NCBI GenBank assembly: GCA_965178125.1
Contig: OZ237737.1
Coordinates: 1,116,001-1,180,000 of the forward strand
Length of the DNA stretch: 64,000 nucleotides
Direction: 5' to 3'
DNA from: Bilabrum cf. latius
Taxonomy: Eukaryota
Part shown: in pieces, positions 1 to 64,000 of the stretch
How positions within the stretch are numbered: the stretch's first letter is position 1
How the letters are laid out: each line of letters starts with the position of its first letter
Program-made: the position numbers and the translations under genes
The notes under the pieces: model-generated
The model's database searches: none
What the model saw: only the letters and a program-made list of their open reading frames with translations
What the model was told of the DNA's origin: nothing

Positions 1-594
1 GCCTATTTGAGGGTATACAATCAAACGCCACAAAATACAACCAAGCAATCGCCAGATAATTTAGAGAGGGAGTATCTGGAGAACAAACAGAGTTCTGGAG
101 TGGATGCAGTTAGAAAAAGAATAAAGAAAAATGCAGGTGAACGTGCCAATGAGTAGCGGTTCAAAGTGGGCGATCAAGTAAGGGTTCGATTGCGATGGGG
201 ATCTAATGAGAAAAGGGGTGAAAACTGGTCTAAGGATGTGTATACTATAAGATAGGTGTTAAAACCGCGTATGCCGTGGAGTCCGTGGTCCTATTAGGTA
301 GAAGGATTGCCAACCAGATATTTTACAGAGGAATTGCAGAAGGTGGATGAGGTTGAAAATCCAATTACTTTGCCAGATTAGTATATTATTTCGAGTATTG
401 TGCGCCCTAGTGTGGTTAATGGGGAGCGTGGATTTGTGGTTCGATGGGTTGGATACAAGGTTCCAGAGTGGAACAGCTATGAAAACATGATCGAAGATGT
501 GCCCAAACTGGTTTAGGCATTTGAAAAGAAGCACAAAGTAGAATGGAAAAAGAATCCACGTACAAACAAATGGACGTTTACGTGGAAAAAGTAA
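1..594 (+). CDS. rve (retroviral-type) integrase, C-terminal part with chromo-like domain; 5'-partial
   Basis: Frame 1 is open except for five TAGs: YNQTPQNTTKQSP...*RFKVGDQVRV...ENWSKDVY...FVVRWVGY..PEWN...WTFTWKK-TAA; collinear with 14226-15431. Confidence 0.85.
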
Positions 595-704
595 TGTAAT
601 TTTCCTTTTAATCCCGTACTAAATTGATACGGATTAAAAGCAAAATGTGTATTTCTCTGAGTAGATGCCTAGGCATTTCACTAATATTTTAATTTTCATG
701 GGAT

Positions 705-4431: not shown

Positions 4432-4720
4432 AAATGAGAATCCCTGTGATTTCTCAATGCAATATTAAATGAATTTTTGAACATCCCCCGCGTGGGGGAC
4501 CCCGCAGAATAATATGGAGACCCCCAAATTTCTCTCCTCTGCAAGAGGAATAGAACCCGAGATGTGAAACGTAGCAGTGTAACTCAGTGCGTAATTTTTA
4601 GGCAGTTGAAAATTTCACCTGCAAAAAAAATGATTTTTCAGCAACTTAAATTTCCACCCTCTACCCGTTTTATGGAAAGAATTACTTATAACAAAAGAAA
4701 AATGTACATAAAAAATACCC

Positions 4721-4791
4721 TACTCTCACACACCACATACCAGGGGGACCTCCAATTTGGAGGTCCCCCTGGTATGTGGTGTGTGAGAGTA
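4721..4791. repeat. Perfect palindrome (35-bp arms, 1-nt centre) at the right terminus of element A
   Basis: TACTCTCACACACCACATACCAGGGGGACCTCCAA-T-TTGGAGGTCCCCCTGGTATGTGGTGTGTGAGAGTA. Confidence 0.95.
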
Positions 4792-5742
4792 AATATGCGT
4801 CTACACACTAAGAACGCTGCACTCCAAGTTCCTCTCAGCACCAATTACGCCTACCCATGGGAAAAAACAATTCCTCATGAATTTCAGGGTAATACTGCTT
4901 TACTTGCTAATAGCGAAACCGTTGTCAGTATTCCCATCATCAGAGAAGACGTTGTTCCCGATATGTTTGTTCCTCATGTTGTGGTCAATCGTGGTGCTGA
5001 TGATTATGGTCCTGATATAACTCTACCTATTACTCACATAAGTTGCACCGTCGGCAATAAATTCAAACTTCTTGATGATCACAGCACTCGCGATCTTTAC
5101 GATTTAGCCGTTTCAAATGGCTACGTTGGTAGTTATGCCCAGTTTGCTGGTTTACTACTCAACCCCGCTGAAAGTACCCTTGCCAATTAGGTACTCGCCA
5201 ATTGGAGCATCTTACCTTTACGCCCCAGTTAGATGCCACTAGATGCCGAATTAATGAGTGGTGTCAAGAAAGAGTTTAGACTCACCAGCCTACAACTCAC
5301 CATTGCCAACCGCACAGCCAATGCAATCGCAGCCGGCGATTACACCATCCAAATCCCTTTCATGTATGGCGGATACATTGAATTTAAAAATGGACGCATT
5401 CAAGCCAAAGAGGTTGTTATTCCAGTAGCCAAAACACTCACCAGCGCTCCTGTGGTCTATCTTGAGGATGACAGCGAACATGCTATTCAAGGCGGACGCG
5501 GTGGACGCGGTTGGAAGAAATTCAAGAACTTCGTCAAGAAAGCTACACCATTTGTCCAAAAAGCCAGCAAATTTGTACGCAACCTACCAGGTGTAAACAA
5601 GGTCGCTGGTGATAGTACCGCTCTAGGACAGGTTATGAAAATGGCTGGTGCTGGTGTAAACCATGTTGGCGGTGGGGTTTAGATGGTTGGAGGTCAAGTG
5701 ATGAGTTCAAGCTAGGCAGATGCAATGGGAGGTTCTTACTAA
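4792..5742 (+). CDS. Virophage-type major capsid protein, C-terminal half (5' part separated by insertion of element A)
   Basis: One frame via TAGs at 5188, 5230, 5680 and 5713. LPITHISCTVGN..LL...STRDLYDLAVSNGYVGSYAQFAG resembles the second jelly-roll of virophage MCPs; Gly-rich/basic tail GGRGWKKFKNFVKKA. Confidence 0.7.
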
Positions 5743-7598: not shown

Positions 7599-8732
7599 TC
7601 AATTACTACAATACAACATGACCTCATTTGGAAACACCCTCTTGTTTGCCATGGCTTCTCGCTTTGGTAGTCGTGCATGTTGTACCTTTTGAAAGAAAGT
7701 CTTTAATCTCTCTATTCGCCTCAATAACTCATCTAAATCTGGAGCATAGTTAACATGATAGGCTACTACCATCTTTTTCAATCCACTAAAATCACATTGA
7801 TCCAAGATCGGCAATTCTGCTCCCTCTATATCCATCTTAACACAATCACAACCCTCGATTGCTTTTTTAAAACTAATGGCTGGCACAATCACCCGTTTTC
7901 TTCCTCGCACCTTTCTTAAGGTGGTATGATTCCACTCTGATTTTGCTAGATACAAAGGGATTTCTCGGGTCTCACTATCCGCCACCACCGCTTGGTTAAA
8001 ACAATTATCGGGGGTTACAGAATTCTAAACCAATATATTATAATTACCTTCATCTGGTTCATAACTCTTGATTGCTATTCCATGCATCTAACATCTGGCT
8101 GTAAATGCACCAATATTTGCTCCGATATCACACCACTTCTCCCCTTTCTCCTACTTGAAAAACTGTGTATATTCCATCTTTTTTCCTAACAATTCCTTAA
8201 TCACCTTGCTATCAGTAGTTTGCGGTCTCTCTACCAAATGATGATGATGATTATAAAAAACCAAACTGTATCTAGTACCTGTGAACGGTGCTGTCCAATG
8301 CTCCTAACTGTGACCATAAAAGTAAAACGGTTTCCGATTAATATCGATTTGCTATTGAGTTCCATCCTAGTTTTTTACCACTAACTCTCCTCCTTTGTAA
8401 TTTCCAAAAGCCACAATCATGGTTATACCTTTGTTTAGGCTATCTGTATGAGGGGCACACAAAAAGTTTTTGTTGACGGTTATATTGCTGAAACGCAAAT
8501 TAGGATCAATCTAGCGCCCCAACTTCACCAGCATTTGATGAATCTCGGGATTCTTAACCATAACAGTACTTGGTTGCCAAGATTTATCTTTAGAAAACAT
8601 TTTCTAGACCAATCCAAAGTTACAAGTTGGTATACTTTTCTTTCCACCTGAAATCTTACGTCTTGTTTTTCCAACTGAAAAGGTAGGAAACTTCCACTGT
8701 TCTAAAGCATTAAATACGCTATCGTAATTCAT
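7599..8732 (-). CDS. 2OG-Fe(II) dioxygenase + FkbM-family methyltransferase fusion (second, divergent copy)
   Basis: ATG 8732 to TGA 7599 with eight TAGs: [17 protein letters not shown]...YKGGEL...[17 protein letters not shown], then [33 protein letters not shown]. Confidence 0.8.
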
Positions 8733-8771
8733 CTTAATCTTACGTGGCAAATTAAATCTAAGCTAATATAT

Positions 8772-9446
8772 ATGAACGCCAAAAACCAATTATGGTTGCA
8801 CGTTTTGTCTGTTGCTCAACAAACCTATCCTCACGATAAAGTTGCCCGTGACAAATACCTTGAATTAATGCGTAAAGAATTACGAATAGAACCCGATCTT
8901 GAACCCGAACCAGAACCCGAACCAGAACCAGTTCTTGAACCTGATAGCGATTCAGATGAACCAGAGCCTGAACCAGAGCCAGAACCTGAACCTGAACCAG
9001 AATCTAGACCTGCCACTCCACCATCTGCACCTAAACCCGAACCTGTTCCAAAACCTGAACCTAAACCTGCCATTCCACCATCTGTTGTGGATTTAAGCCC
9101 ACCTAAATTACAACGAGAGCGATAGGTTTCTTTTGTAATTCCAGGTTTCGGTGATCCCGAACCTGAACCCGAACCCGAACCCGAACCTGAACCATTTAAA
9201 GTCGAAGTGGTTGATAGTGATAAACCCGAATTTCGATGGATGGTACAAGAGCAGGAAAACGGTGAATGGATCTATTTTGGTGATAAAGGTGCTCTGACTG
9301 CCAAAGAAATGGTGGATCGTAAAATGTGCAGTTGGAGACGTGCTTATTCCCGAGTCCATAGATATCTTAAACAACACCGTCCGGTGTCTGATGGATCTCT
9401 CGATCGATGGAAATGGGAGCAAAAATACTACTTAGCACAAAACTAA
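8772..9446 (+). CDS. Hypothetical PE/PK-repeat protein
   Basis: 8772-9125 and 9207-9446 are in frame across a TAG at 9123; PEPEP repeats continue after it. Confidence 0.7.
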
Positions 9447-13639: not shown

Positions 13640-13676
13640 GTTATGTTAAAAATAATAATATATAGAGAAATCATAT

Positions 13677-14087: not shown

Positions 14088-14225
14088 AAATATTTCTGAG
14101 AATTCCCTATTAATATCAATTAAATTAATACGGAATTATTCGCAAAATCACAGTTGTCTGTGTACTTATATAGAGAGAAATTTATTTTTAAAATACCAGT
14201 GGGAATTTATCTATGATAATATATA

Positions 14226-15431
14226 ATGAATAGTATCACAGATAAATAGCGAAAAATACTCAACCACTTGTACTACGATAAAAAGAGTTTTCTTGGACGG
14301 GATCGCTTTTGGAAACTTGCTTTGGATTTCGGTGTAGATCTACCACGACGAACCGTCTACTCTTGGCTGAGTAATCAAGAGGTGTATCAAATGCAAAAAC
14401 CAACACGCCAAGCCAAAAGTATTAAATCTACTCGATCCAAAGCACCATTCAACAAACTACAAATAGATCTAGTTGATATGAGTAGTAGCACAACAGCAAG
14501 AGGAGCAAATTGGTTACTAACTGCGATTGATGCCTATACCCGAAAAGCATACGCTTTGCCAATGAAAAATAAAAATGAAAAGACTGTTCTTGATAGTTTA
14601 GATCTTTTGCTGGATGAACTACCCAAATTACCCAAATCCATCTAGAGCGATAACGGTTCAGAGTTTATCAACAAGAAATTTAAAGCCCGTTTAAAATCCT
14701 TGAAAATTAAACAGATTTTGAGTACTGCAGGAAAGCCTTAGACCAATGGACTCGTTGAAAGATTCAATGGCACGCTCAAAAGATTTATTAAAAGCGATTT
14801 ACTGAGCACAGGCGAAAATGATTGGGATGTTAACTTGCCATTATATCTCAAAGCATACAATTCCACTCCACAAACTACCACGGGTAAAGCACCTGATAAA
14901 TTGGTTGAGGAATGGAAACAATCAAATATGAAAGAGGCTCCTGAAATCAAACAAGCATCCAAGCAAGATTTGGCAACCCAGCAATTCAAGATTGGCGATC
15001 AGGTACGAATTAAATTAGTCTAGAACCAAAACTAGAAACGTGCGGAAAATTGGTCCAAGGATTTATACCAGGTTGCCGAGGTGTTTAAGCCACGATAGCC
15101 TTGGAGTCCTTTCCAGTATCAAGTTAAGGATAGCCAGGGAGGCTTACTTAAAACCAAGTATGGCAACGAGGATTTGCAACAAATCAATGCGGTGGAAAAC
15201 AAGAGTAAATTAGCGGAGCGATTTGAACTTAGTAGCATTACACGTCCCAGTGTCCGAGATGGCGAATAGGGATACATTGTTAGATACAAAGGATACTCTA
15301 AACCGGAATGGAATAGCCTGAAAAATTTGGAATTGGATGTACCAAAAATGGTACGGCTATTTGATAAGCGACACAATGTGGTTTGGAAAAAAGACAAGAA
15401 AGACAAATGGACTTTCTCATGGAAAAAATAA
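14226..15431 (+). CDS. rve (DDE) integrase with C-terminal chromo-like domain, Polinton/mavirus type
   Basis: LQIDLVDM, AIDAYTRK, I*SDNGSEF, KP*TNGLVERFNGTLK, YNSTP, FKIGDQVRI, YIVRYKGY. Confidence 0.92.
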
Positions 15432-15517
15432 CAGTTAAATTTCATTGATCATATTATATGAGTTATGAATAGTATTTGAAGTATAAAAACACACGTATTA
15501 GCACGTTGCCATAGTAC

Positions 15518-26530: not shown

Positions 26531-26531
26531 C

Positions 26532-49538: not shown

Positions 49539-49865
49539 TTCGCTTGTATTCCGCATCGAGTGGCTCGGTGCTTGATATTGGATTGTGCACGCTGCATGAA
49601 TAAAGGGTGATGCTTAGGAAATCAGGAGAAGATATCCTGCACGCAGACTTCTTGTTCCATCATGCTCACTTAGGTACGATGCTACGTACTCATGCCTGGC
49701 AGGACCTTGACACTCGACTGCTGTTATATGTACTCGGACATCAGGATTGAAGCGACGGGGAGCAGAGGTGAGACGGAAGACGGGGCGGGCGCAGGAGGAC
49801 AGGAGGTGGAGAAGAAGAAGGGGACACCGGCACAGGCGACGACAGTGCGGTGTCAACAGGGAGTA

Positions 49866-51367
49866 CACAGTCCGAGGCTCTTCGGGGACCTCATCCGCAC
49901 CGCGCAGTAGAAGCCCGAGGATTCCAAGGCGAAATCCATGGGCGTCCGCATCTCAAGCTCTCGGCAGTTCCGGGCGGTGCCGGTGCTCCTACCTACTCAG
50001 TCCGCGCTCACTGTGCGCCTGCCGGCTGGAGGAGCTTCAGGGGCTGCATCCGCGGCTGCAACGGCTGCCGCGGGCAGCGGTGCGGGCGGTGCATACCAGG
50101 CTGGGCATGGCGCGCTGGCAGGCTTCCCCCCGGCGGGGGTGCGCCCCACGATTGACCAGTTTGAGCAGCGAGCCAAGGTAATATCGAGCAAGGAGAAGCC
50201 CAAGCAGCTGACTGCCGTGGGCTCAGACGGTCGCAGGTACCACTTCTGTGCAAGCAGGAGCTCTCGGGCGACTTGCGCAAGGACGCCCGCATGATGGAGC
50301 ACTCCACGGTGGTGAACCGGCTGCTGGCGTCGGACCACGAGGCCAGCAGGCGCGCGCTCCGGCTGCGCACCTACAGCGTGATCGTGACGAGCGAGAGCAC
50401 GGGGCTCATGGAGTGGGTGGAAAACTGCACGCCGTTGCGCTTCGCCGTCAAGGAGGTCTACAATGACCTGGGCGTTGACAGTCCCATGCACCTAACGCTC
50501 CGTGTCATGAATACGCTGCAGAAGAACCAGGACAACTAGAACCAGACCACTGCAGCCACGGCAAGGTTCTTCGCCTCTGAGGTGCAGCCACAGTTCCCTG
50601 CGGTGCTGCACAGTTACCATCTGAAGCGTTTCGCCGATCCGGAGCGGTGGCTTCGGGCTCGGCAGCGGTTCACACGAAGCACGGCCTGCTGGGCCATGGT
50701 GGGTCATCTGCTTGGGCTGGGCGATCGCCACGGAGACAACCTGCTAATTGACGACACGAGCGGGGATCAGGTGCACGTGGACTTTGACTGCCTGTTTGAC
50801 AAGGGACTGTCCCTGTCACGGCCCGAGGTGGTGCCCTTCCGCCTCACCGCCAACGTGCTGGATACGATGGGCCTTTGAGGGTACGAGGGAGGCATGCGCC
50901 GGTCCAGCGAGGCGTGCATGGCGGTGCTACGTGCGAACGGGAGCACGCTGCTGGGCGTGCTGGAGTCCTTTGTGTACGATCCACTGGTGGAGTGGACTCG
51001 AAGCAAGAGCAAGGGAGGGAGGCACTCTTCATCCTCGTCCTCATCTTCGTCCTCGTCGGCGGCCGCGGGTGGCGCGGTGCTGCCGACCGACGAGGTGCCC
51101 AGCACGGCGGTGGAGGGCGAGATGGAGAACATCGCCGGTGTGGCGATTGTGAGGCACATCAAGGAGAGGCTGCGGGGAGGGTACAACGTGCGGCCGCCGC
51201 ACCGGGACAAGTACAACGTGAGGACGCGGAGGCACGCTGCGGACGATGGCAGACTTGTGGAAGGTCGCACCATCGGGGTGCAGGCGCAGGTACACCGGCT
51301 GATCTCCGAGGCGTCATCGGTGGAGAGTCTGGCCTAGATGTACGTTGGGTGGATGCCGTTCTTGTAA
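49866..51367 (+). pseudogene. ATR: ATR-like kinase/FATC fragment, copy 2
   Basis: Same frameshift and TGA as copy 1. Confidence 0.8.
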
Positions 51368-52356
51368 AGTTGAGCGCTTCTGATCTGGGGTCTTGGGTCG
51401 GGGAGGAAGGCGCTGCAGTGCACTGCACTGCGCCTTCTCCCGTGGGGCCGTAGGTGCTTAAGCTGCAGTTTGGAGTGCAGACTAGGATTGCGAGGGAGTC
51501 GGGATCGGGCTGCTATCCGTTCACTCTGCCTTGATTCCGATACGAGGCATCTCGACCGCAATCGCCTAACTGCTTCCGGATTCGTGCACAGGCTGAGGGG
51601 AAGCGCGCGGCGTGTGCCTGACGGGAGGGGGGCCGTCGCAGCCGTGGCACATGCCAAGCAAGAGAAGATCGGGAATCCGGGGCTCGAGATCTGGCGCCGC
51701 GGCGGGGGCCGGTGCGGGTGCGGGTGGAGTGGGCGGTTCCGTGGGTGATGGTGGCTCTGGGCTGGGGCAGGGGTCCGCGGCATCCACCAAGGAGGCCTTC
51801 TCCGTGGGTGCGCTGGCGGCCCAGCTGAAGCGGTCCGACGAGGCCCTGATCAAGGGCAAGGCGTGGAGGGAGAAGCGGGCGGGGGCGCAGCAGCAGCAGC
51901 AGCAGCAGGCGCGCATGGAGAGGGCGGAGAAAGCGTCTGGCGAAGGAGGGGCAGCGAGTGAGAACGGCGCATCTCCGTGAGGAGGGATGTGGTGGGTTGC
52001 GCATGGTCTGGTTGCTTCCTGTGAAGCTGATGTTCCTAGTGAGCGAGGCTGCCACGCCAGGCCCAGCCAGCACCTTCAAGGTGTGAAGATGAAAACAGCC
52101 TGAACCGGACTAGAATGGATCGATCTCACCGATTCGTTGTCAGTTTCATCGATACTGTTTCGACTGTAGTATCTCCGACTAAAGCCTTTCTAGGTACAGG
52201 GTTGGGTTGGAGCGAATCAGAACTGGCCGTCGAACAGGTACACAAGAAAAGGGCGTGCATAGTAAAGCTCGTATTCCCTGTCATTCTGTAGTCGGCAGCC
52301 ACCTGGCTGGCTACGTATCAGGAGTCGATACTGGATATAATTACTGCCAGGAAGCC

Positions 52357-53832
52357 ATGGAGCAAGCAGCAGGTGCATGCTCAGGGGAGGTGATCGATCT
52401 CGTCAGCGGCGACTCAAGCGACAGCGACGCTGGTGGAAGCGATGTCGAGGTTTCCGACCGTCGCATAAGCACGATGGCTGCATCGCTATCATTGACTAGC
52501 AGTCGCTAGTGGGGCAGGCGAGAGGCAGGTGGGAAAGGTAGGGCACGAGATCGAGCCAGCGATCGAGCCAAAGCTGTTCCCACGTCCATCGTGGCGTCGG
52601 GACACTCCAGCAGCAGCGCAATGTTGCCGCAAGAAGTGCAATCTTCAATGCAGTCAACCTCAGGGGTAGATGCAAGCGGCGGCACCGATACCTCTTTGGG
52701 CCAGAAGCGAGACAGGCAGGCAGAGGCGAGGTCAGCAGACAGCTATAGCGGATCGAGGGGAAAGAGACGGCGTGGGCAGGCAGGCAAAATCGGGGTAGGA
52801 CATCGTTGCAACGTGTGCGGGCAGACATTCCGACAGGCAGGCGATCTCAGGACGCACATGAGGACTGTGCATCTTGGGGAGCGCAAGCACGAGTGCAGTG
52901 TGTGCGGCAAGTCATTCGGACAGGCAGGCTCACTCAGGACGCACATGAGGACTGTGCATCTGGGCGAGCGCAAGCACGAGTGCAGTGTGTGCGGCAAGTC
53001 ATTCGGTGTGGCAGGCTCACTCAGGACGCACATGAGGACGGTGCATCTGGGCGAGCGCAAGCACGAGTGCAGTGTGTGCGGGCAGTCATTCGGTGCGGCA
53101 AGCAATCTCAGGAGGCACATGAGGACTGTGCATCTGGGCGAGCGCAAGCACGAGTGCAGTGTGTGCGGCAAGTCATTCGGTGTGGCAGGCGATCTCAGGA
53201 CGCACATGAGGACGGTGCATCTGGGCGAGCGCAAGCACGAGTGCAGTGTGTGCGGGCAGACATTCGGGGAGGCAAGCAATCTCAGGAGGCACGTGAGGAC
53301 TGTGCATCTGGGCGAGCGCAAGCACGAGTGCAGTGTGTGCGGCAAGTCATTCGGACAGGCAGGCTCACTCAGGACGCACATGAGGACTGTGCATCTGGGC
53401 GAGCGCAAGCACGAGTGCAGTGTGTGCGGCAAGTCATTCGGACAGGCAGGCGATCTCAGGACGCACATGAGGACGGTGCATCTGGGCGAGCGCAAGCACG
53501 AGTGCAGTGTGTGCGGCAAGTCATTCGGACTGGCAGGCTCACTCAGGAGGCACATGTCCACTGTGCATCTGGGCGAGCGCAAGCACGAGTGCAGTGTGTG
53601 CGGCAAGTCATTCGGGCGGGCAGGCTCACTCAGGACGCACATGAGGACTGTGCATCTTGGGGAGCGCAAGCACGAGTGCAGTGTGTGCGGCAAGTCATTC
53701 GGACTGGCAGGCTCACTCAGGAGGCACATGTCTACTGTGCATCTGGGCGAGCGCAAGCACGAGTGCAGTGTGTGCGGCAAGTCATTCGGGGAGGCAGGCA
53801 GTCTCAGGAGGCACGCGCGAGGTTGCCTTTGA
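52357..53832 (+). CDS. C2H2 zinc-finger array protein, 12 fingers
   Basis: Includes VAGS, VAGD and LAGS finger variants absent from copies 1 and 2. Confidence 0.85.
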
Positions 53833-54159
53833 TTCGCTTGTATTCCGCATCGAGTGGCTCGGTGCTTGATATTGGATTGTGCACGCTGCATGAATAAAGG
53901 GTGATGCTTAGGAAGTCAGGAGCAGATATCCTGCACGCAGACTTCTTGTTCCATCATGCTCACTTAGGTACGATGCTACGTACTCATGCCTGGCAGGACC
54001 TTGACACTCGACTGCTGTTATATGTACTCGGACATCAGGATTGAAGCGACGGGGAGCAGAGGTGAGACGGAAGACGGGGCGGGCGCAGGAGGACAGGAGG
54101 TGGAGAAGAAGAAGGGGACACCGGCACAGGCGACGACAGTGCGGCGTCAACAGGGAGAA

Positions 54160-55659
54160 CACAGTCCGAGGCTCTTCGGGGACCTCATCCGCACCGCGCA
54201 GTAGAAGCCCGAGGATTCCAAGGCGAAATCCATGGGCGTCCGCATCTCAAGCTCTCGGCAGTTCCGGGCGGTGCCGGTGCTCCTACCCACTCAGTCCGCG
54301 CTCTGTGCGCCTACCGGCTGGCGGAGCTTCAGGGGCTGCATCCGCGGCTGCAACGGCTGCCGCGGGCAGCGGTGCGGGCGGTGCATACCAGGCTGGGCAT
54401 GGCGCGCTGGCAGGCTTCCCCCCGGCGGGAGTGCGCCCCACGATCGACTAGTTTGAGCAGCGAGCCAAGGTGATGTCGAGCAAGGAGAAGCCCAAGCAGC
54501 TGACTGCCGTGGGCTCAGACGGTCGCAGGTACCACTTCTGTGCAAGCAGGAGCTCTCGGGCGACCTGCGCAAGGACGCCCGCGTGATGGAGCACTCCACG
54601 GTGGTGAACCACCTGCTGGCGTCGGACCACGAGGCCAGCAGGCGCGCGCTCCGGCTGCGCACCTACAGCGTGATCGTGACGAGCGAGAGCACGGGGCTCA
54701 TGGAGTGGATGGAAAACTGCACGCCGTTGCGCTTCGCCGTCAAGGAGGTCTACAATGACCTGGGCGTTGACAGTCCCATGCACCTAACGCTCCGTGTCAT
54801 GAATACGCTGCAGAAGAACCAGGACAACCAGAACCAGACCACTGCAGCCACGGCAAGGTTCTTCGCCTCTGAGGTGCAGCCACAGTTCCCTGCGGTGCTG
54901 CACAGTTACCATCTGAAGCGTTTCGCCGATCCGGAGCGGTGGCTTCGGGCTCGGCAGCGGTTCACACGAAGCACGGCCTGCTGGGCCATGGTGGGTCATC
55001 TGCTTGGGCTGGGCGATCGCCACGGAGACAACCTGCTAATTGACGACACGAGCGGGGATCAGGTGCACGTGGACTTTGACTGCCTATTTGACAAGGGACT
55101 GTCCCTGTCACGGCCCGAGGTGGTGCCCTTCCGCCTCACCGCCAACGTGCTGGATACGATGGGCCTTTGGGGGTACGAGGGAGGCATGCGCCAGTCCAGC
55201 GAGGCGTGCATGGCGGTGCTACGTGCGAACGGGAGCACGCTGCTGGGCGTGCTGGAGTCCTTTGTGTACGATCCACTGGTGGAGTGGACTCGAAGCAAGA
55301 GCAAGGGAGGGAGGCACTCTTCATCCTCGTCCTCATCTTCGTCCTCGTCGGCGGCCGCGGGTGGCGCGGTGCTGCCGACCGACGAGGTGCCCAGCACGGC
55401 GGTGGAGGGCGAGATGGAGAACATCGCCGGTGTGGCGATTGTGAGGCACATCAAGGAGAGGCTGCGGGGAGGGTACAACGTGCGGCCGCCGCACCGGGAC
55501 AAGTACAACGTGAGGACGCGGAGGCACGCTGCGGACGATGGCAGACTTGTGGAAGGTCGCACCATCGGGGTGCAGGCGCAGGTACACCGGCTGATCTCCG
55601 AGGCGTCATCGGTGGAGAGTCTGGCCTAGATGTACGTTGGGTGGATGCCGTTCTTGTAA
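54160..55659 (+). pseudogene. ATR: ATR-like kinase/FATC fragment, copy 3
   Basis: Upstream frameshifts, but open from 54583 to the FATC end (TGG where copies 1 and 2 have TGA). Confidence 0.75.
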
Positions 55660-56667
55660 AGTTGAGCGCTTCTGATCTGGGGTCTTGGGTCGGGGAGGAA
55701 GGCGCTGCAGTGCACTGCACTGCGCCTTCTCCCGTGGGGCCGTAGGTGCTTAAGCTGCAGTTTGGAGTGCAGACTAGGATTGCGAGGGAGTCGGGATCGG
55801 GCTGCTATCCGTTCACTCTGCCTTGATTCCGATACGAGGCATCTCGACCGCAATCGCCTAACTGCCTCCGGATTCGTGCACAGGCTGAGGGGAAGCGCGC
55901 GGCGTGTGCCTGACGGGAGGGGGGCCGTCGCAGCCGTGGCACATGCCAAGCAAGAGAAGATCGGGAATCCGGGGCTCGAGATCTGGCGCCGCGGCGGGGG
56001 CCGGTGCGGGTGCGGGTGGAGTGGGCGGTTCCGTGGGTGATGGTGGCTCTGGGCTGGGGCAGGGGTCCGCGGCATCCACCAAGGAGGCCTTCTCCGTGGA
56101 TGCGCTGGCGGCCCAGCTGAAGCGGTCCGACGAGGCCCTGATCAAGGGCCAGGCGTGGAGGGAGAAGCGGGCGGGGGCGCAGCAGCAGCAGCAGCAGCAG
56201 AAGCAGAAGCAGATCACAAGCGCGCATGGAGAGGGCGGAGAAAGCGTCTGGCGAAGGAGGGGCAGCGAGTGAGAACGGCGCATCTCCGTGAGGAGGGATG
56301 TGGTGGGTTGCGCATGGTCTGGTTGCTTCCTGTGAAGCTGATGTTCCTAGTGAGCGAGGCTGCCACGCCAGGCCCAGCCAGCACCTTCAAGGTGTGAAGA
56401 TGAAAACAGCCTGAACCGGACTAGAATGGATCGATCTCACCGATTCGTTGTCAGTTTCATCGATACTGTTTCGACTGTAGTATCTCCGACTAAAGCCTTT
56501 CTAGGTACAGGGTTGGGTTGGAGCGAATCAGAACTGGCCGTCGAACAGGTACACAAGAAAAGGGCGTGCATAGTAAAGCTCGTATTCCCTGTCATTCTGT
56601 AGTCGGCAGCCACCTGGCTGGCTACGTATCAGGAGTCGATACTGGATATAATTACTGCCAGGAAGCC

Positions 56668-58317
56668 ATGGAGCAAGCAGCAGGTGCATGCTCAGGGGAG
56701 GTGATCGATCTCGTCAGCGGCGACTCAAGCGACAGCGACGCTGGTGGAAGCGATGTCGAGGTTTCCGACCGTCGCATAAGCACGATGGCTGCATCGCTAT
56801 CATTGACTAGCAGTCGCTAGTGGGGCAGGCGAGAGGCAGGTGGGAAAGGTAGGGCACGAGATCGAGCCAGCGATCGAGCCAAAGCTGTTCCCACGTCCAT
56901 CGTGGCGTCGGGACACTCCAGCAGCAGCGCAATGTTGCCGCAAGAAGTGCAATCTTCAATGCAGTCAACCTCAGGGGTAGATGCAAGCGGCGGCACCGAT
57001 ACCTCTTTGGGCCAGAAGCGAGACAGGCAGGCAGAGGCGAGGTCAGCAGACAGCTATAGCGGATCGAGGGGAAAGAGAAGGCGTGGGCAGGCAGGCAAAA
57101 TCGGGGTAGGACATCGTTGCAACGTGTGCGGGCAGACATTCCGACAGGCAGGCGATCTCAGGACGCACATGAGGACTGTGCATCTTGGGGAGCGCAAGCA
57201 CGAGTGCAGTGTGTGCGGCAAGTCATTCGGTGTGGCAGGCTCACTCAGGACGCACATGAGGACGGTGCATCTGGGCGAGCGCAAGCACGAGTGCAGTGTG
57301 TGCGGGCAGTCATTCGGTGCGGCAAGCAATCTCAGGAGGCACATGAGGACTGTGCATCTGGGCGAGCGCAAGCACGAGTGCAGTGTGTGCGGCAAGTCAT
57401 TCGGACAGGCAGGCTCACTCAGGACGCACATGAGGACTGTGCATCTGGGCGAGCGCAAGCACGAGTGCAGTGTGTGCGGCAAGTCATTCGGTGTGGCAGG
57501 CTCACTCAGGACGCACATGAGGACGGTGCATCTGGGCGAGCGCAAGCACGAGTGCAGTGTGTGCGGGCAGTCATTCGGTGCGGCAAGCAATCTCAGGAGG
57601 CACATGAGGACTGTGCATCTGGGCGAGCGCAAGCACGAGTGCAGTGTGTGCGGCAAGTCATTCGGACAGGCAGGCGATCTCAGGACGCACATGAGGACGG
57701 TGCATCTGGGCGAGCGCAAGCACGAGTGCAGTGTGTGCGGGCAGACATTCGGGGAGGCAAGCAATCTCAGGAGGCACGTGAGGACTGTGCATCTGGGCGA
57801 GCGCAAGCACGAGTGCAGTGTGTGCGGCAAGTCATTCGGACAGGCAGGCTCACTCAGGACGCACATGAGGACTGTGCATCTGGGCGAGCGCAAGCACGAG
57901 TGCAGTGTGTGCGGCAAGTCATTCGGACAGGCAGGCGATCTCAGGACGCACATGAGGACGGTGCATCTGGGCGAGCGCAAGCACGAGTGCAGTGTGTGCG
58001 GCAAGTCATTCGGACTGGCAGGCTCACTCAGGAGGCACATGTCCACTGTGCATCTGGGCGAGCGCAAGCACGAGTGCAGTGTGTGCGGCAAGTCATTCGG
58101 GCGGGCAGGCTCACTCAGGACGCACATGAGGACTGTGCATCTTGGGGAGCGCAAGCACGAGTGCAGTGTGTGCGGCAAGTCATTCGGACTGGCAGGCTCA
58201 CTCAGGAGGCACATGTCCACTGTGCATCTGGGCGAGCGCAAGCACGAGTGCAGTGTGTGCGGCAAGTCATTCGGGGAGGCAGGCAGTCTCAGGAGGCACG
58301 CGCGAGGTTGCCTTTGA
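56668..58317 (+). CDS. C2H2 zinc-finger array protein, 14 fingers
   Basis: Same subfamily as copy 3. Confidence 0.85.
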
Positions 58318-58644
58318 TTCGCTTGTATTCCGCATCGAGTGGCTCGGTGCTTGATATTGGATTGTGCACGCTGCATGAATAAAGGGTGATGCTTAGGAAG
58401 TCAGGAGCAGATATCCTGCACGCAGACTTCTTGTTCCATCATGCTCACTTAGGTACGATGCTACGTACTCATGCCTGGCAGGACCTTGACACTCGACTGC
58501 TGTTATATGTACTCGGACATCAGGATTGAAGCGACGGGGAGCAGAGGTGAGACGGAAGACGGGGCGGGCGCAGGAGGACAGGAGGTGGAGAAGAAGAAGG
58601 GGACACCGGCACAGGCGACGACAGTGCGGCGTCAACAGGGAGAA

Positions 58645-60144
58645 CACAGTCCGAGGCTCTTCGGGGACCTCATCCGCACCGCGCAGTAGAAGCCCGAGGA
58701 TTCCAAGGCGAAATCCATGGGCGTCCGCATCTCAAGCTCTCGGCAGTTCCGGGCGGTGCCGGTGCTCCTACCCACTCAGTCCGCGCTCTGTGCGCCTGCC
58801 GGCTGGAGGAGCTTCAGGGGCTGCATCCGCGGCTGCAACGGCTGCCGCGGGCAGCGGTGCGGGCGGTGCATACCAGGCTGGGCATGGCGCGCTGGCAGGC
58901 TTCCCCCCGGCGGGAGTGCGCCCCACGATCGACTAGTTTGAGCAGCGAGCCAAGGTGATGTCGAGCAAGGAGAAGCCCAAGCAGCTGACTGCCGTGGGCT
59001 CAGACGGTCGCAGGTACCACTTCTGTGCAAGCAGGAGCTCTCGGGCGACCTGCGCAAGGACGCCCGCGTGATGGAGCACTCCACGGTGGTGAACCACCTG
59101 CTGGCGTCGGACCACGAGGCCAGCAGGCGCGCGCTCCGGCTGCGCACCTACAGCGTGATCGTGACGAGCGAGAGCACGGGGCTCATGGAGTGGATGGAAA
59201 ACTGCACGCCGTTGCGCTTCGCCGTCAAGGAGGTCTACAATGACCTGGGCGTTGACAGTCCCATGCACCTAACGCTCCGTGTCATGAATACGCTGCAGAA
59301 GAACCAGGACAACCAGAACCAGACCACTGCAGCCACGGCAAGGTTCTTCGCCTCTGAGGTGCAGCCACAGTTCCCTGCGGTGCTGCACAGTTACCATCTG
59401 AAGCGTTTCGCCGATCCGGAGCGGTGGCTTCGGGCTCGGCAGCGGTTCACACGAAGCACGGCCTGCTGGGCCATGGTGGGTCATCTGCTTGGGCTGGGCG
59501 ATCGCCACGGAGACAACCTGCTAATTGACGACACGAGCGGGGATCAGGTGCACGTGGACTTTGACTGCCTATTTGACAAGGGACTGTCCCTGTCACGGCC
59601 CGAGGTGGTGCCCTTCCGCCTCACCGCCAACGTGCTGGATACGATGGGCCTTTGGGGGTACGAGGGAGGCATGCGCCAGTCCAGCGAGGCGTGCATGGCG
59701 GTGCTACGTGCGAACGGGAGCACGCTGCTGGGCGTGCTGGAGTCCTTTGTGTACGATCCACTGGTGGAGTGGACTCGAAGCAAGAGCAAGGGAGGGAGGC
59801 ACTCTTCATCCTCGTCCTCATCTTCGTCCTCGTCGGCGGCCGCGGGTGGCGCGGTGCTGCCGACCGACGAGGTGCCCAGCACGGCGGTGGAGGGCGAGAT
59901 GGAGAACATCGCCGGTGTGGCGATTGTGAGGCACATCAAGGAGAGGCTGCGGGGAGGGTACAACGTGCGGCCGCCGCACCGGGACAAGTACAACGTGAGG
60001 ACGCGGAGGCACGCTGCGGACGATGGCAGACTTGTGGAAGGTCGCACCATCGGGGTGCAGGCGCAGGTACACCGGCTGATCTCCGAGGCGTCATCGGTGG
60101 AGAGTCTGGCCTAGATGTACGTTGGGTGGATGCCGTTCTTGTAA
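58645..60144 (+). pseudogene. ATR: ATR-like kinase/FATC fragment, copy 4
   Basis: As copy 3. Confidence 0.75.
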
Positions 60145-61483
60145 AGTTGAGCGCTTCTGATCTGGGGTCTTGGGTCGGGGAGGAAGGCGCTGCAGTGCAC
60201 TGCACTGCGCCTTCTCCCGTGGGGCCGTAGGTGCTTAAGCTGCAGTTTGGAGTGCAGACTAGGATTGCGAGGGAGTCGGGATCGGGCTGCTATCCGTTCA
60301 CTCTGCCTTGATTCCGATACGAGGCATCTCGACCGCAATCGCCTAACTGCCTCCGGATTCGTGCACAGGCTGAGGGGAAGCGCGCGGCGTGTGCCTGACG
60401 GGAGGGGGGCCGTCGCAGCCGTGGCACATGCCAAGCAAGAGAAGATCAGGAATCCGGGGCTCGAGATCTGGCGCCGCGGCGGGGGCCGGTGCGGGTGCGG
60501 GTGGAGTGGGCGGTTCCGTGGGTGATGGTGGCTCTGGGCTGGGGCAGGGGTCCGCGGCATCCACCAAGGAGGCCTTCTCCGTGGGTGCGCTGGCGGCCCA
60601 GCTGAAGCGGTCCGACGAGGCCCTGATCAAGGGCAAGGCGTGGAGGGAGAAGCGGGCGGGGGCGCAGCAGCAGCAGAAGCAGCAGGCGCGCATGGAGAGG
60701 GCGGAGAAAGCGTCTGGCGAAGGAGGGGCAGTGAGCAAGAACGGCGCATCTCCGTGAGGAGGGATGTGGTGGGTTGCGCATGGTCTGGTTGCTTCCTGTG
60801 AAGCTGATGTTCCTAGTGAGCGAGGCTGCCACGCCAGGCCCAGCACCTTCAAGGTGTGAAGATGAAAACAGCCTGAACCGGACTAGAATGGATCGATCTC
60901 ACCGATTCGTTGTCAGTTACAGCGACTCAAGCGACAGCGACGCTGGTGGAAGCGATGTCGAGGTTTCCGACCGTCGCATGAACGCGATTGCTGCATCGCT
61001 ATCATTGACCAGCAGTCGCTAGTGGGGCAGGCGAGAGGCAGGTAGGAAAGGTAGGGCCCGTAGAAAAGTGGTCATATTGTGTAAGGCAAGTCTTGTTCTA
61101 CTAGCTGCTTGTAAAGTCGGCCCAATTTTATAGGATGCAAGTGGGTGCGTGCACGCCATCCGCACGCAGCGGAAACACCCGCTGCTAACCGCCGTTTTGC
61201 GCCTATTGCAGAGCTCCGGCGGCAGCGGCAGGTGTGGTGGGTTGCAAGCATCCATCCAAAGTGGACAAACAAATCAGCAAAGCAATAGTCCATAGAGGTA
61301 CACACAAACAGCCGGTCGCTCCAGTCCTCGACGAGCCAGCCAGTGCACATGGCAACGAAGATGTCACAATCACAGACTGTGCGAGCCTGATCAAAGGCAA
61401 GACAACCAGCCAAACCGCAAAGCATCACACAATCTTCTCGCCCCTTATGCACTGAGAATACTCTATGTCGAAGGTCAGCTCTC

Positions 61484-64000
61484 TTAAGTGGCCTTGCTCT
61501 CGGCCTCAGCAGCTGCGGCGTCATCTTGCAGCTCGCGCAGCTGAGACAGGCTCAGGCCTTGCTTCGATGACATGCGGCGAGGACCCATGCCGCCGCTGCC
61601 GAGCAGTTGTGCACGGTCCGAGCCGCCCGAAGGAGACCCGGAGGCTGCCGCTGCTGCTGCCATCGGGTTCTGCGTCGAGCTGTCCTCCGTGGCTCCCCCC
61701 TCGGGTGCCTTGGATCTACGAGGCGCCCTGCGGCCCTTGGCGGACTTGGCACCGGAACCAGACGACTTGTCTCCCAGGTTGCGCTGACTGGGGCGGTTTC
61801 CAAGCGTGGGTGTGAACTGAGCTTTCTTGCCACCACGACCACCAAGGCGCTTTCTGCCTGCAGTAGATCGCCCGAAAGTGTTACTAGAACCCCCAGATGC
61901 ACCTCCTTGCGCTCCGCCGCGCACCATGCCGCCCATCATCAACGACTGACGCCTGGAGCCCTTCATATCAGCGGCTCGAGCCTTCCGCTTGTACATTTCG
62001 TTGGCCTCCTGCTGCCTCCTCAGCAGGTCCTGCACCACGGGCCAGCTCAGTGCCTCGGGCCACCCGTGCTCGCCCGTCTAGGCCATCAGCACTTGGTCGA
62101 TCTCCACATCCTCGGCGTGGAACTCGGTCTCGCCACCCGACTGCGCCAGCTGCTTGGCCTTCCTCTGGGCCTTCAAGAACATCGGGTTCGTCTGCGCCGC
62201 GGCACCCACCTCCAGATCATCTGGCGCATCCTTACCGCCGGACTTGCCACGGTCACCCGTGAAGCGCATCGACTTCTCGCGCTTGGCCTTCTCCTCAGCC
62301 GACTCGCAGCTGAACGTGTTGCGGGCCACGTCCGGACACAGCGCATTGCTGAACTCGTAGAACAGCACGATGGCCAGGTACACCAGACTCGTGATCACGA
62401 TGACCATCGTCAGGATCGCAGCGGAGTCGCGCTGGGCCTCGAAGCCCGGACGCTGCAGGTACTCCGACTCGAAGATGATGCCGGCCAGGCACACCAGGAT
62501 GCAGCTGAACAGCAGCACAGCCTCCACCGTGTTGGCGTCGAAAGCCACCTCGCTCGCAAGCGTGCCCAGCGGCTTGCCCTCCTGCGCCCGCCTCCACAGG
62601 TTGCGGTGCATCTCCAGCCGCTTCTGGTCTCGCAGTACCTTGGAGATGTTGTTGGCCAGCAAGCTGTGCAGCGCGTCGTGCTGCTGCTCCACCATCACGC
62701 GATGCTGCTTCACCACGTTGTCCTTCGTGGCTTGACCCGCCATGTACGGCAAGTACCTCACATGCAAAGCGTAGCAGCAGATCAGCACCAGCAGAAGCAC
62801 CGCCAGCTGGAACACAACGTTGCGCCGGAACAGCAGCGCGGTCACGGCGATGCAGAACTTTCGCGCGATGATCACCAGGTTCCAGTAGATGAAGTTGATC
62901 TGGAAGTAGTAGTACAGCCGACCCACGCTCCTGCGCAGCAAGTTCGTGTTGGGCCCGGTCAGTGTGTCATCGCCCAGACCGTATGCCCGCAACAGCTGGT
63001 CCTCCTGCATCACGCGGTAGTTGCGCCACAGCAGGATAGACACGAACAGAGGGAAGCCCACCGTGTACACCACAAAGCCAATGATGGCGAACGGCAGCAG
63101 CTGCAAGTGCAGCCCACCGCGCTCGTAGCAAGGCTCAAACACGTCGTCCATATACAGCTTCTCGCTGCCGTCGGGGTTCAGCTCGGCGGGGTCCGTGGGG
63201 TTGCAGTTGAAGATCGAAAACACGCTCTGAGTCAGCATCAGGTACAGCACGAAGCAGCCCGTCGTGAACACAGACACAAGCTTGTCCATGTGCGTGCAGC
63301 AGCTCTCCTGCAGCTTGCGGCCCATGAGTAGCAGCTTGTTCAGAGACAGCATCACGTGCACCACCATCAGAATGGCCAGTGCCGCCACGGGTAGCAGCAT
63401 CAGCGCCGCCCACTTCAGACCGAAGCTCAGGCTCGGTACCATGCACTCGGGGGCCGTGATCTCCAGGTTGAGGTTGAACGCTGACAGGATCGTGAACAGG
63501 TCGCGCAGCAGGTTAGGGAAAGCAATGCGAGACGTGCTGAAGATGGCCAGCACCTGCATATAGTCCACGGCGATCATCAGAGTGGACAGCGTCAGGTTGC
63601 GCTTGTTCAGGTAGTACCCCAGCGAGCATGCCAGGATTGCACCCACCACGAACACCGCCACGATGATCTCGGGGTTCTGGGGGCACTTGGCGCACCGACC
63701 GGCCAGCTTGTAGTGGTTGGGGGCGCACTGCGAGCACCGCTCTCCGGCGTAGTTGCTGGCGCACATGTTGTTCCCCACGCACGCGTCCTGCGGCTCGCAA
63801 GCCAGCACCACATGGCACACATAGTCAGGCCCAAACCGTGCCCGCTCATCGGGGCAGTAGATGTTGCCCCGCTCCGAGTTCGCGGGATCCAGGTACAGCC
63901 ACCACCCAGCCGTGGCCACGGGCAGGTAGTCGTGGTCCTCGAAGCATGCGCCACCCTCGGGACACGGCACGCACAGCTCGCCGGCACGGCCGTAGAAGCC
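61484..64000 (-). CDS. 3' end of an inverted paralog of the giant cadherin/TM gene; continues beyond the window
   Basis: Near-identical to ~37541-40050; shared TAG at 62078; ends TAA at 61484. Confidence 0.9.

What the first reader, a model, noticed from the sequence alone, without database searches (positions are those of the whole stretch)
1..64000. TAG is read as glutamine in both the host nuclear genes and the endogenous viruses; TAA and TGA remain stops
Seen: the 13.2-kb host exon 26826-40065 is broken only by nine TAGs. Its paralog has CAG (61541-61543, minus strand) where it has TAG (39997). The FATC end reads LA*MYVGWMPFL. Array copies swap TAG and CAG reciprocally (45986 vs 54829; 45606 vs 54449). 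In the virus, TAG falls in the integrase motifs I*SDNGSEF (14643) and P*TNGLVER (14739), and paralogs align GD* with GDQ. Every reconstructed gene ends in TAA or TGA. Known: nuclear codes usually reassign UAA and UAG together, so UAG-only Gln is rare. Inference: a protist lineage with this code, and viruses adapted to it that use TAG much more densely than the host does.
Basis: partly seen in the sequence, partly recalled or inferred. Interest (0 to 1): 0.9.

Follow-up and report, generated by a model that had tools for sequence, protein, structure and literature searches.

The report
TAG read as glutamine, host and viruses
A GC-rich protist, probably a relative of the flagellate Cafeteria, and the virophage-like DNA integrated in its genome both read the stop codon TAG as glutamine while keeping TAA and TGA as stops, a rare variant of the genetic code.

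Summary

**TAG is a sense codon.**
- Host: the exon 26826-40065 has 9 in-frame TAG, 0 TAA and 0 TGA in 4412 codons. It is under purifying selection (dN/dS about 0.05). Spliced contigs from three runs keep the TAGs.
- Virus: 10 ORFs have 64 TAG, 0 TAA and 0 TGA in 4324 codons.

**TAG means Gln.**
- A syntenic metagenome relative (L001) has TAG where 110 of 113 CAF16 homologs have Q.
- In the cadherin ortholog, TAG faces Q 8 times in 14 (lnL Q -22.8, K -42.6).
- In the viral primase-helicase, 12 TAG columns score Q 11.7 and E 2.0. None of 20000 random column sets reaches that score.

**Caveats.**
- The ATR/FATC array units are truncated, frameshifted fragments that also swap TGA and TGG.
- The viruses' higher TAG density is what their base composition predicts.

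UAG-only Gln is already known in four lineages. I found no report for a stramenopile. This is a new member of a known kind.

The parts
1..594 (+). C-terminal part of a second rve integrase (another viral copy running off the window); 5 in-frame TAG, ends TAA
   Evidence: 48% identical to residues 209-403 of the integrase at 14220-15431; both end ...WKK + TAA
705..2768 (-). viral Tet/JBP oxygenase fused to FkbM-type methyltransferase; 2 TAG, ends TAA
   Evidence: Pfam Tet_JBP 8e-25, Methyltransf_21 1.7e-07; codon counts
4513..5742 (+). virophage-type major capsid protein, C-terminal jelly-roll only; 4 TAG, ends TAA; a perfect 35-nt palindrome lies at 4721-4791
   Evidence: Pfam MCP_V20_C 9.3e-12; PDB 6g45 8e-07 and 3j26 (capsid protein V20) 2e-06, matching only their C-terminal halves; palindrome
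7599..8789 (-). second Tet/JBP-FkbM gene; 9 TAG, ends TGA
   Evidence: Pfam; 34% identical to 705-2768 over 228 aa
11141..12247 (-). packaging ATPase (Walker A GMSGSGKTT); 9 TAG, ends TAA
   Evidence: PHROG 2666 'terminase large subunit' 1.7e-06; codon counts
14220..15431 (+). rve integrase with C-terminal chromodomain-like part; 7 TAG, including 14643 and 14739
   Evidence: Pfam rve 1.4e-16; TAG 14739 aligns to the Q of Ty3 'hpQtdgqser' and PFV 'hpQssgkver'
15449..16528 (+). C5 cytosine DNA methyltransferase; 4 TAG, ends TGA
   Evidence: Pfam DNA_methylase 6.7e-62; aligned to M.HhaI up to 10 residues from its end
17102..17172 (+). tRNA with anticodon CAT inside the AT-rich viral island; not a suppressor
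   Evidence: ARAGORN; Rfam tRNA 48 bits
20198..22504 (-). primase-helicase (D5-like); 19 TAG, 7 CAG, 22 CAA; ends TAA
   Evidence: Pfam DUF5906; 2462 homologs; column analysis gives Q; a 94% identical fragment, P0141, has Q at TAG codon 364
26530..26689 (+). upstream Cys-rich exon of the host cadherin/TIG gene, followed by a 136-nt GT..AG intron (26690-26825)
   Evidence: Joint 26689 to 26826 in contigs of X3, X4 and X6 but not X1; the spliced frame is open and continues the CPxG repeat
26826..40065 (+). 13.2-kb host exon: cadherin and IPT/TIG repeats plus a multi-pass membrane region; TAG at 27355, 28240, 28741, 28903, 31354, 31774, 34666, 39460, 39997; stop TGA
   Evidence: selection; ortholog in L001
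40643..42184 (-). host CAF16-like ABC ATPase, two exons (42184-42005 and 41524-40643); no TAG here; stop TGA
   Evidence: Pfam ABC_tran; 60% identical to the Cafeteria roenbergensis protein; the L001 ortholog has TAG at a column that is Q in 110 of 113 homologs
43074..61480 (+). four tandem units of about 4.3-4.55 kb, each with a C2H2 zinc-finger array (87-nt period) and a truncated, frameshifted ATR-like kinase+FATC fragment ending TAA
61484..64000 (-). inverted paralog of the 3' end of the cadherin/TIG gene (97% identical); CAG at 61541-61543 where copy A has TAG; shares the TAG at the position of 39460; stop TAA

Best explanation
The window is nuclear DNA of a GC-rich protist. On present evidence it is a stramenopile related to Cafeteria. 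It carries AT-rich integrated virophage-type elements in positions 1 to about 26200.

In this organism UAG is decoded as glutamine, and UAA and UGA remain the terminators. This is the assignment of NCBI table 15 (table number recalled). Because the integrated viruses are translated by the host's machinery, they use the same code.

TAG behaves as an ordinary synonym of CAG. Its share of Gln codons follows base composition: rare in the GC-rich host, commoner than CAG in the AT-rich virus.

**Shown here**
- TAG is a sense codon in selected, transcribed host genes and in viral genes.
- Its meaning is Gln.
- TAA and TGA never occur in frame in the ORFs examined, and they close the genes at positions where homologs also end.

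**Inferred, not shown**
- A tRNA-Gln with anticodon CUA, one base change away from CUG.
- An eRF1 that no longer recognises UAG efficiently.
For: **Host**
- The exon has 4412 codons with 9 TAG, 0 TAA and 0 TGA. Its off-frames hold 141 and 81 TGA.
- The two paralogous 3' ends differ at 21 sites in 37551-39588. Of these, 18 are synonymous, so dN/dS is about 0.05. One TAG (39997) faces CAG and one TAG (39460) is shared.
- Of the variant rows shown for other runs (40 shown, 165 not shown), 21 fall in the exon. Of these, 18 are synonymous if TAG 27355 to CAG (run X4) is counted as synonymous.
- Contigs of X3, X4 and X6 lack the 136-nt GT..AG intron, so they derive from spliced RNA. They keep TAG at 27355 (X6), 28240 (X4), 28741 and 28903 (X3, X4) and 39460 (X3, X4).

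**Relative L001** (syntenic metagenome contig, 72-79% nucleotide identity in the syntenic segments)
- Its CAF16 has TAG where the window has CAG and where 110 of 113 homologs have Q.
- In the cadherin ortholog, the 14 TAG codons of either species face Q 8, R 3, A 1, D 1 and S 1 times. lnL is -22.8 for Q and -42.6 for the next best, K. Canonical Q is conserved 70% in the same alignment.

**Virus**
- Ten ORFs hold 64 TAG, 0 TAA and 0 TGA in 4324 codons. Their off-frames hold 158 TAG, 262 TAA and 211 TGA.
- In the primase-helicase aligned with 141 homologs, 12 TAG columns score Q 11.7, E 2.0 and T -2.5 nats. All 10 control codon families gave their own residue. None of 20000 random sets of non-Q columns reaches the Q score.
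- Integrase TAG 14739 aligns to the Q of the PQ(T/S)xG motif.
- A 94% identical fragment has Q at a TAG codon.

**Stops**
- 95 of 120 ATR homologs end at the same alignment column as the TAA after the FATC.
- The window and L001 CAF16 genes end at the same residue, both with TGA.
- Both integrase copies end WKK + TAA.
- If TAA were a synonym of CAA, the AT-rich virus should be full of in-frame TAA, given that TTA/(TTA+CTA) is 0.63 there. It has none.
Against: - No tRNA-Gln(CUA) and no eRF1 could be examined. The only tRNA in the window has anticodon CAT, there are none in L001-L004, and no genome is held.
- There is no peptide evidence.
- Only a handful of gene ends were seen, so occasional use of TAG as a terminator cannot be excluded.
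- The runs are Logan contigs whose RNA status is a guess by the tool. I infer RNA from the removed intron. For 4 of the 9 host TAGs, retention could not be read from the output: the differences were unlisted or the place was not covered.
- The ATR/FATC evidence comes from probable pseudogene fragments.
- In low-identity viral paralog pairs, TAG faces many residues: Q 3, R 3, K 3, E 2 and 6 others.
- The 9-of-9 TAG count in the host exon is only P = 0.02-0.04 by itself.
Confidence: 0.88

Rival explanations
1. TAG is ambiguous. It is read as Gln inside genes but still terminates some genes, depending on context, as in ciliates with context-dependent codes.
For: Only about 15 gene ends were seen in the window and L001. 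Genome-wide stop usage is unknown because no genome is held.
Against: None of the gene ends examined needs TAG as a terminator. TAGs lie as close as 9 and 22 codons before real ends (FATC 55630; 39997), and there they face Q in homologs, in the paralog and in the ortholog.
Confidence: 0.07
2. The TAGs are nonsense mutations in decaying pseudogenes and dead viral copies, or assembly errors. The organism uses the standard code.
For: - TAG is the most reachable stop from GC-rich codons (0.66-0.70 of one-step nonsense changes), so 9 of 9 has P = 0.02-0.04.
- The array ATR fragments really are broken: a frameshift in all four units and a TGA in two.
- The MCP is 5'-truncated.
Against: - dN/dS is about 0.05 between the paralogs, and 18 of 21 strain variants are synonymous.
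- There is no frameshift in 13.2 kb, and the gene is spliced and transcribed.
- The same pattern holds in a species 72-79% identical, with TAG at different sites, 8 of 14 facing Q.
- The viral ORFs have 64 in-frame TAG and no TAA or TGA in AT-rich DNA.
Confidence: 0.02
3. TAG is a sense codon for another residue (Lys, Arg, Glu, Leu, Ser), as UAG = Leu or Ser in other lineages.
For: In low-identity viral paralog alignments TAG faces K and R as often as Q. In M.HhaI the two alignable MTase TAGs face K and T.
Against: - Ortholog likelihood: Q -22.8 against K -42.6, R -45.7 and E -52.0.
- The CAF16 column is Q in 110 of 113 homologs.
- The primase-helicase columns score Q 11.7 against E 2.0.
- All four within-genome or between-strain swaps are with CAG.
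Confidence: 0.02
4. Both TAA and TAG are reassigned to Gln (the common UAR = Gln code), and only TGA is a stop.
For: This is the commonest variant in eukaryotes (PMC11687900, introduction).
Against: - There is no in-frame TAA in 5581 host and 4324 viral codons.
- TAA closes 8 of 10 viral ORFs, the FATC end (95 of 120 homologs end at that column) and paralog B.
- In the AT-rich virus CAA is the commonest Gln codon (127), so a synonymous TAA should be abundant.
Confidence: 0.01

Closest known systems
UAG = Gln with UAA and UGA as stops in Iotanema spirale (Fornicata) (PMC5304391, abstract read)
   Same: The same assignment: UAG is glutamine and UAA and UGA terminate.
   Different: An unrelated lineage (an anaerobic metamonad), known from a transcriptome. 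Here the organism is a GC-rich, apparently Cafeteria-related one, seen in genomic DNA together with integrated viruses.
UAG = Gln in the ciliates Hartmannula sinica, Trochilia petrani and Protocruzia tuzeti (PMC11687900: abstract, introduction and discussion passages read)
   Same: UAG alone is reassigned to Gln, and UAA is kept as a stop. Those authors propose a tRNA-Sup(CUA) that should read only UAG.
   Different: Those are ciliates. The window has a 136-nt GT..AG intron and 62% GC, and its best-matching named proteins are from stramenopiles. No suppressor tRNA could be looked for here.
Endogenous polinton-like viruses of Streblomastix strix that use the host's TAA/TAG = Gln code (PMC10120064, passages read)
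   Same: Integrated capsid-encoding DNA viruses share the non-standard code of their protist host, which points to a long association.
   Different: There both TAA and TAG are Gln. Here only TAG is, and the elements have a virophage-type capsid protein (matches to PDB 6g45 and 3j26 V20).
TAG = Gln recoding ('code 15') in crAss-like and other gut phages (PMC9523058, search listing and start of abstract only)
   Same: The same codon and the same amino acid.
   Different: Those phages differ in code from their hosts. Here host genes use TAG too, and no suppressor tRNA is encoded in the viral island.

Membership tests
Nuclear code with UAG = Gln and UAA/UGA = stop | In-frame UAG in conserved, selected, transcribed nuclear genes | tested here: met
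   9 TAG in a 4412-codon exon with dN/dS about 0.05; TAG kept in spliced contigs; TAG also in the CAF16 and cadherin orthologs of L001
Nuclear code with UAG = Gln and UAA/UGA = stop | UAG positions correspond to Gln in homologs | tested here: met
   CAF16 column Q in 110 of 113 homologs; ortholog partners Q 8 of 14, lnL Q -22.8 against K -42.6; viral columns Q 11.7 against E 2.0, 0 of 20000 random sets reach it
Nuclear code with UAG = Gln and UAA/UGA = stop | UAA and UGA absent in frame and used as terminators at homologous C-termini | tested here: met
   0 TAA and 0 TGA in 5581 host and 4324 viral codons; ends coincide with those of homologs. The sample is limited to this window and L001.
Nuclear code with UAG = Gln and UAA/UGA = stop | A tRNA-Gln with anticodon CUA | not testable with these tools
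   No genome is held. The only tRNA in the window has anticodon CAT, and there are none in L001-L004.
Nuclear code with UAG = Gln and UAA/UGA = stop | eRF1 altered in stop-codon recognition; peptides spanning UAG | not testable with these tools
   eRF1 is not in the window, and there are no proteomic data.
Virophage / polinton-like integrated virus | Double jelly-roll major capsid protein | tested here: inconclusive
   Only the C-terminal jelly-roll matches (Pfam MCP_V20_C 9.3e-12; PDB 6g45 residues 329-576 and 3j26 residues 268-470). The N-terminal half was not found, and a palindrome sits at 4721-4791.
Virophage / polinton-like integrated virus | Packaging ATPase, rve integrase, primase-helicase | tested here: met
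   PHROG 2666 1.7e-06; rve 1.4e-16; DUF5906 and 2462 homologs
Virophage / polinton-like integrated virus | Minor capsid (penton) protein and cysteine protease | not tested
   No ORF gave such a match. No structure prediction was run.
Host = stramenopile related to Cafeteria (Bicosoecida) | Phylogenetic placement with bicosoecids | tested here: inconclusive
   In the CAF16 tree, window + L001 are sister to Cafeteria + 2 unnamed rows with support 86/82. The best named hits are Cafeteria, at 60% (CAF16) and 47% (ATR). The ATR tree is unresolved, with a long branch. There is no rRNA in the window.

The most novel reading that the evidence does not exclude
An independent and so far unreported UAG-to-Gln reassignment arose in a Cafeteria-related stramenopile lineage. 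The lineage comprises at least two species: the window's organism and the organism of L001, which is 72-79% identical in DNA.

Its integrated virophage-type elements have drifted so far into the new code that TAG is commoner than CAG in them, at 28% of all Gln codons. They can therefore no longer be expressed in any host with the standard code. That would be a code-based lock on viral host range. It implies that the giant viruses these elements depend on must also be compatible with UAG = Gln.
Probability: 0.45. Interest if true: 0.8.

Novelty: new member of a known kind. Interest (0 to 1): 0.66.

Why it matters
Codes in which UAG and UAA differ in meaning are few. They are the test cases for how the two codons can be uncoupled, through a tRNA with anticodon CUA and changes in eRF1 specificity (PMC5304391 abstract; PMC11687900 introduction).

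A further, non-ciliate lineage would add an independent replicate. It has DNA data and apparently RNA data from several strains, and a second species in metagenomes.

There are practical consequences. Standard gene callers truncate this organism's genes: P0274 and P0141 are such fragments. Integrated viruses of this kind would be scored as degraded.

The TAG-rich viruses also raise the question of whether a code change acts as a barrier to viral host switching.

Tried and rejected
- That Atlas search gave no useful taxon.
- **Sequencing runs.** No RNA holder is listed on record. RNA origin of X3, X4 and X6 is inferred only from the removed intron.
- **C5 methyltransferase against M.HhaI**. The TAGs fall in variable columns (K, T), so this is uninformative.
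- **Internal cadherin repeats**. The TAG columns are variable, so this is uninformative.
- **Packaging ATPase homolog search**. No hit.
- **IMG/VR scans** with the integrase, primase-helicase and MCP. No close relative was found. L004 is a 27-residue match and was ignored.
- **ATR tree**. The query sits on a long branch and is unresolved.
- **Low-threshold ARAGORN with introns**. It gave 139 calls, which I treated as noise. They include a 'tRNA-Pyl(cta)' with a 607-nt intron, which I do not accept.
- **Virus-only recoding by a viral suppressor tRNA.** Rejected, because host genes carry TAG and the only viral tRNA has anticodon CAT.
- **Literature.** Six searches found no report of a non-standard nuclear code in a stramenopile or bicosoecid. 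The library lacks most subscription journals. Supplementary tables could not be opened, for example the Codetta results of PMC12220804.


Full report
**1. What is in the window**

Bases 1 to about 26200 are AT-rich (GC 0.33-0.41). The rest is GC-rich (0.56-0.67).

Read with TAG as a sense codon, the AT-rich part encodes the following genes:
- a virophage-type capsid protein, C-terminal jelly-roll only. Pfam MCP_V20_C scores 9.3e-12, and PDB 6g45 and 3j26 V20 match;
- a packaging ATPase (PHROG 2666, 1.7e-06);
- an rve integrase;
- a C5 DNA methyltransferase (6.7e-62);
- two Tet/JBP-FkbM fusions;
- a lipase-like protein;
- a primase-helicase.

The 3' end of a second integrase lies at 1-594.

The GC-rich part holds:
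- a 13.2-kb exon of a cadherin/IPT-TIG membrane protein;
- a two-exon CAF16-like ABC ATPase on the minus strand;
- four tandem units, each with a C2H2 zinc-finger array and an ATR-like kinase fragment;
- an inverted, 97% identical copy of the 3' end of the cadherin gene.

**2. The observation**

The exon 26827-40062 has 4412 codons with 9 TAG, 0 TAA and 0 TGA. Its two off-frames hold 141 and 81 TGA.

Ten viral ORFs with family support hold 64 TAG, 0 TAA and 0 TGA in 4324 codons. Their off-frames hold 158 TAG, 262 TAA and 211 TGA in 8628 codons. In frame, TAG is therefore about as frequent as out of frame, while the other two stops are excluded.

**3. Is the host gene alive?**

The count of 9 of 9 TAG is weak on its own. 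From GC-rich codons, TAG makes up 0.66-0.70 of one-step nonsense changes, which gives P = 0.02-0.04.

The gene is, however, clearly under selection:
- Between the two paralogous 3' ends, 18 of 21 differences in 37551-39588 are synonymous. With 505 synonymous and 1556 non-synonymous sites, dN/dS is about 0.05.
- Of the 21 variants listed for other runs inside the exon, 18 are synonymous. The output showed 40 rows and left 165 out.

Contigs of runs X3, X4 and X6 skip exactly 26690-25825's neighbour, the segment 26690-26825 (136 nt, GT..AG). This joins an open Cys-rich upstream exon in frame. The source-like run X1 does not skip it. I take those contigs to be RNA-derived, although the tool calls this a guess.

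The same contigs keep TAG at 27355 (X6), 28240 (X4), 28741 and 28903 (X3, X4) and 39460 (X3, X4). This follows from records whose differences are all listed in the output. X4 has CAG at 27355. For the other four TAGs the output does not allow a statement.

So the TAGs are neither spliced out nor edited, at least at those five sites.

**4. What TAG means in the host**

Within the genome, TAG 39997 faces CAG in the paralog, and TAG 39460 is shared by both copies.

A metagenome contig, L001 (Ga0136560_1001381), is syntenic with the window. It has CAF16 convergent with the cadherin gene and is 72-79% identical in DNA across the syntenic segments. It is therefore a related species.
- Its CAF16 has one in-frame TAG. 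The window has CAG there, and 110 of 113 aligned homologs have Q. Of the 120 listed hits, 7 of 450 residues or more were left out of that alignment.
- The database protein P0274 is the piece after that TAG, as a standard-code gene caller would cut it.
- In the cadherin ortholog (78% identity over 2261 residues, 74% over 569), the TAG codons of the two species lie at different sites. They face Q 8, R 3, A 1, D 1 and S 1 times, and one more faces a gap.
- Using substitution frequencies from the same alignment, lnL is -22.8 for Q, -42.6 for K and -45.7 for R. Canonical Q is conserved 70% there and most often changes to R.

**5. What TAG means in the virus**

The primase-helicase (19 TAG) found 2462 homologs. 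I aligned the 141 hits of at least 450 residues among the best 150.
- Twelve TAG columns are occupied in at least 70 homologs. Their summed log-odds are Q 11.7, E 2.0 and T -2.5.
- The same score recovered the right residue for all ten control codon families.
- None of 20000 random sets of 12 non-Q columns reached 11.7.

Further support:
- Integrase TAG 14739 aligns with the Q of Ty3 'hpQtdgqser' and foamy-virus 'hpQssgkver'.
- A 94% identical fragment, P0141, has Q at TAG codon 364 and ends just before TAG 417.

In distant viral paralog pairs (34-48% identity) TAG faces Q 3, R 3, K 3, E 2 and single W, M, S, F, L and P. That fits Q but is not decisive.

**6. TAA and TGA**

Neither occurs in frame in the ORFs above.
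- The TAA after '...GWMPFL' lies at the alignment column where 95 of 120 ATR homologs end.
- CAF16 ends at the same residue, with TGA, in both the window and L001.
- Both integrase copies end WKK + TAA.

If TAA were Gln, the AT-rich virus should hold many in-frame TAA, because CAA is its commonest Gln codon (127) and its TTA/(TTA+CTA) is 0.63. It holds none.

**7.

(a) The array is weak evidence.
- Each unit matches only residues 425-830 of the 830-residue Cafeteria ATR-family protein P0005, that is, about its last 400 residues.
- The frame changes within 'GSDGRRYHF / LLCKQ' in all four units.
- Units 1 and 2 have TGA where units 3 and 4 have TGG, and there is a 2-bp indel. In all, the four units differ by 21 substitutions over about 1950 columns.
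- These are most likely dead fragments, so their TAG/CAG swaps could be plain mutations.
- Still, the FATC TAG sits at a column that is Q in 63 of 120 homologs (K 16, R 14), and Q in human ATR.

(b) The higher TAG density of the virus needs no special adaptation.
- TAG is 14.8 per 1000 codons and 28% of Gln codons in the virus, against 1.8 per 1000 and 4.4% in the host.
- TAG/(TAG+CAG) is 0.63 in the virus and 0.05 in the host.
- This runs parallel to TTG/(TTG+CTG), at 0.79 and 0.09, and to TTA/(TTA+CTA), at 0.63 and 0.08.
- TAG simply drifts as a synonym of CAG.

**8. Who is the host?**

There is no rRNA in the window.
- The best named hits are Cafeteria roenbergensis: CAF16 at 60% and the ATR fragment at 47%. 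Oomycetes and other stramenopiles follow.
- In a CAF16 tree, window + L001 (support 100/100) are sister to Cafeteria plus two unnamed sequences (86/82).
- The ATR tree is unresolved.

I read this as 'probably a stramenopile near the bicosoecids', not as shown.

**9. Mechanism**

Shown: the decoding rule. Inferred from what is established for other UAG-only codes (PMC11687900 introduction; PMC5304391 abstract):
- a tRNA-Gln with anticodon CUA, which should read UAG but not UAA;
- weakened recognition of UAG by eRF1.

Neither could be looked for. The tRNA in the viral island has anticodon CAT.

**10. Comparison and novelty**

The same code is reported for Iotanema spirale, Protocruzia tuzeti, Hartmannula sinica and Trochilia petrani. 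Integrated viruses that share a host's variant code are reported for Streblomastix strix, where TAA and TAG are both Gln.

Six literature searches found no stramenopile case. The library is incomplete and supplements were closed.

It is a new member of a known kind.

Noticed in passing
window 17102-17172 (+): A tRNA gene with anticodon CAT (42% GC, Rfam 48 bits) lies inside the AT-rich viral island, between the C5 methyltransferase and a MORN-repeat ORF. It looks virus-encoded. I did not determine whether it is an initiator, an elongator Met or an Ile2-like tRNA.
   Followed up: partly
window 4721-4791: A perfect 35-nt inverted repeat with a 1-nt spacer lies inside the 5' part of the capsid ORF. 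The capsid homology covers only the C-terminal jelly-roll, so the gene may be truncated at a fold-back junction. The junction could be real or an assembly artefact.
   Followed up: partly
window 19948-20207, 23237-23455, 24259-24519: Inverted repeats of about 120-260 nt (94-95% complementary) bracket the primase-helicase module. A contig of run X1 joins 23485 directly to 26227. This looks like a TIR-bounded sub-element, or alternative ends of the viral copies.
   Followed up: no
window 16540-16620, 18344-18392, 18951-19002, 19306-19360: A recurring intergenic hairpin-like motif (AAATCATTT ... AAATGATTT) lies between viral genes. It could be a viral promoter or terminator signal.
   Followed up: no
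window 705-2768, 7599-8789, 15449-16528, 23486-24268: The viral island carries two Tet/JBP oxygenase-FkbM methyltransferase fusions, a C5 DNA methyltransferase and a second weak C5-methylase-like ORF. Together they form a DNA-modification module, with a 5mC writer and a TET-like oxidiser.
   Followed up: no
window 2710-3330 (-), 13659-14084 (+), 17337-17993 (-): Three viral ORFs are made of MORN-like repeats (WYKNGKLHRDGDKPA). They are mutually similar.
   Followed up: no
window 43074-61480: There are four tandem units of about 4.3-4.55 kb. Each has 11-15 C2H2 fingers with an unusual 29-residue (87-nt) period and an ATR kinase+FATC fragment. The fragment has a shared one-base frame change, and units 1 and 2 also have a TGA.
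   Followed up: partly
window 26215-26530: The spliced contigs of X3, X4 and X6 continue upstream of 26215 or 26530 into sequence that is not in 20101-26530. The viral island may therefore sit inside an intron of the cadherin/TIG gene, or be absent from those strains.
   Followed up: no
L001 4603-4798 and 5158-5290; window 37985, 38346: The orthologous gene in L001 has two extra segments (about 196 and 133 nt, presumably introns) where the window's gene is one uninterrupted 13.2-kb exon.
   Followed up: no
window 39617-39714 versus 61826-61923: There is a short block of dense, mostly non-synonymous differences between the two otherwise 97% identical paralogs. Contigs of three runs skip 39629-39715. 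It is a hypervariable Ser/Gly-rich tail segment.
   Followed up: no
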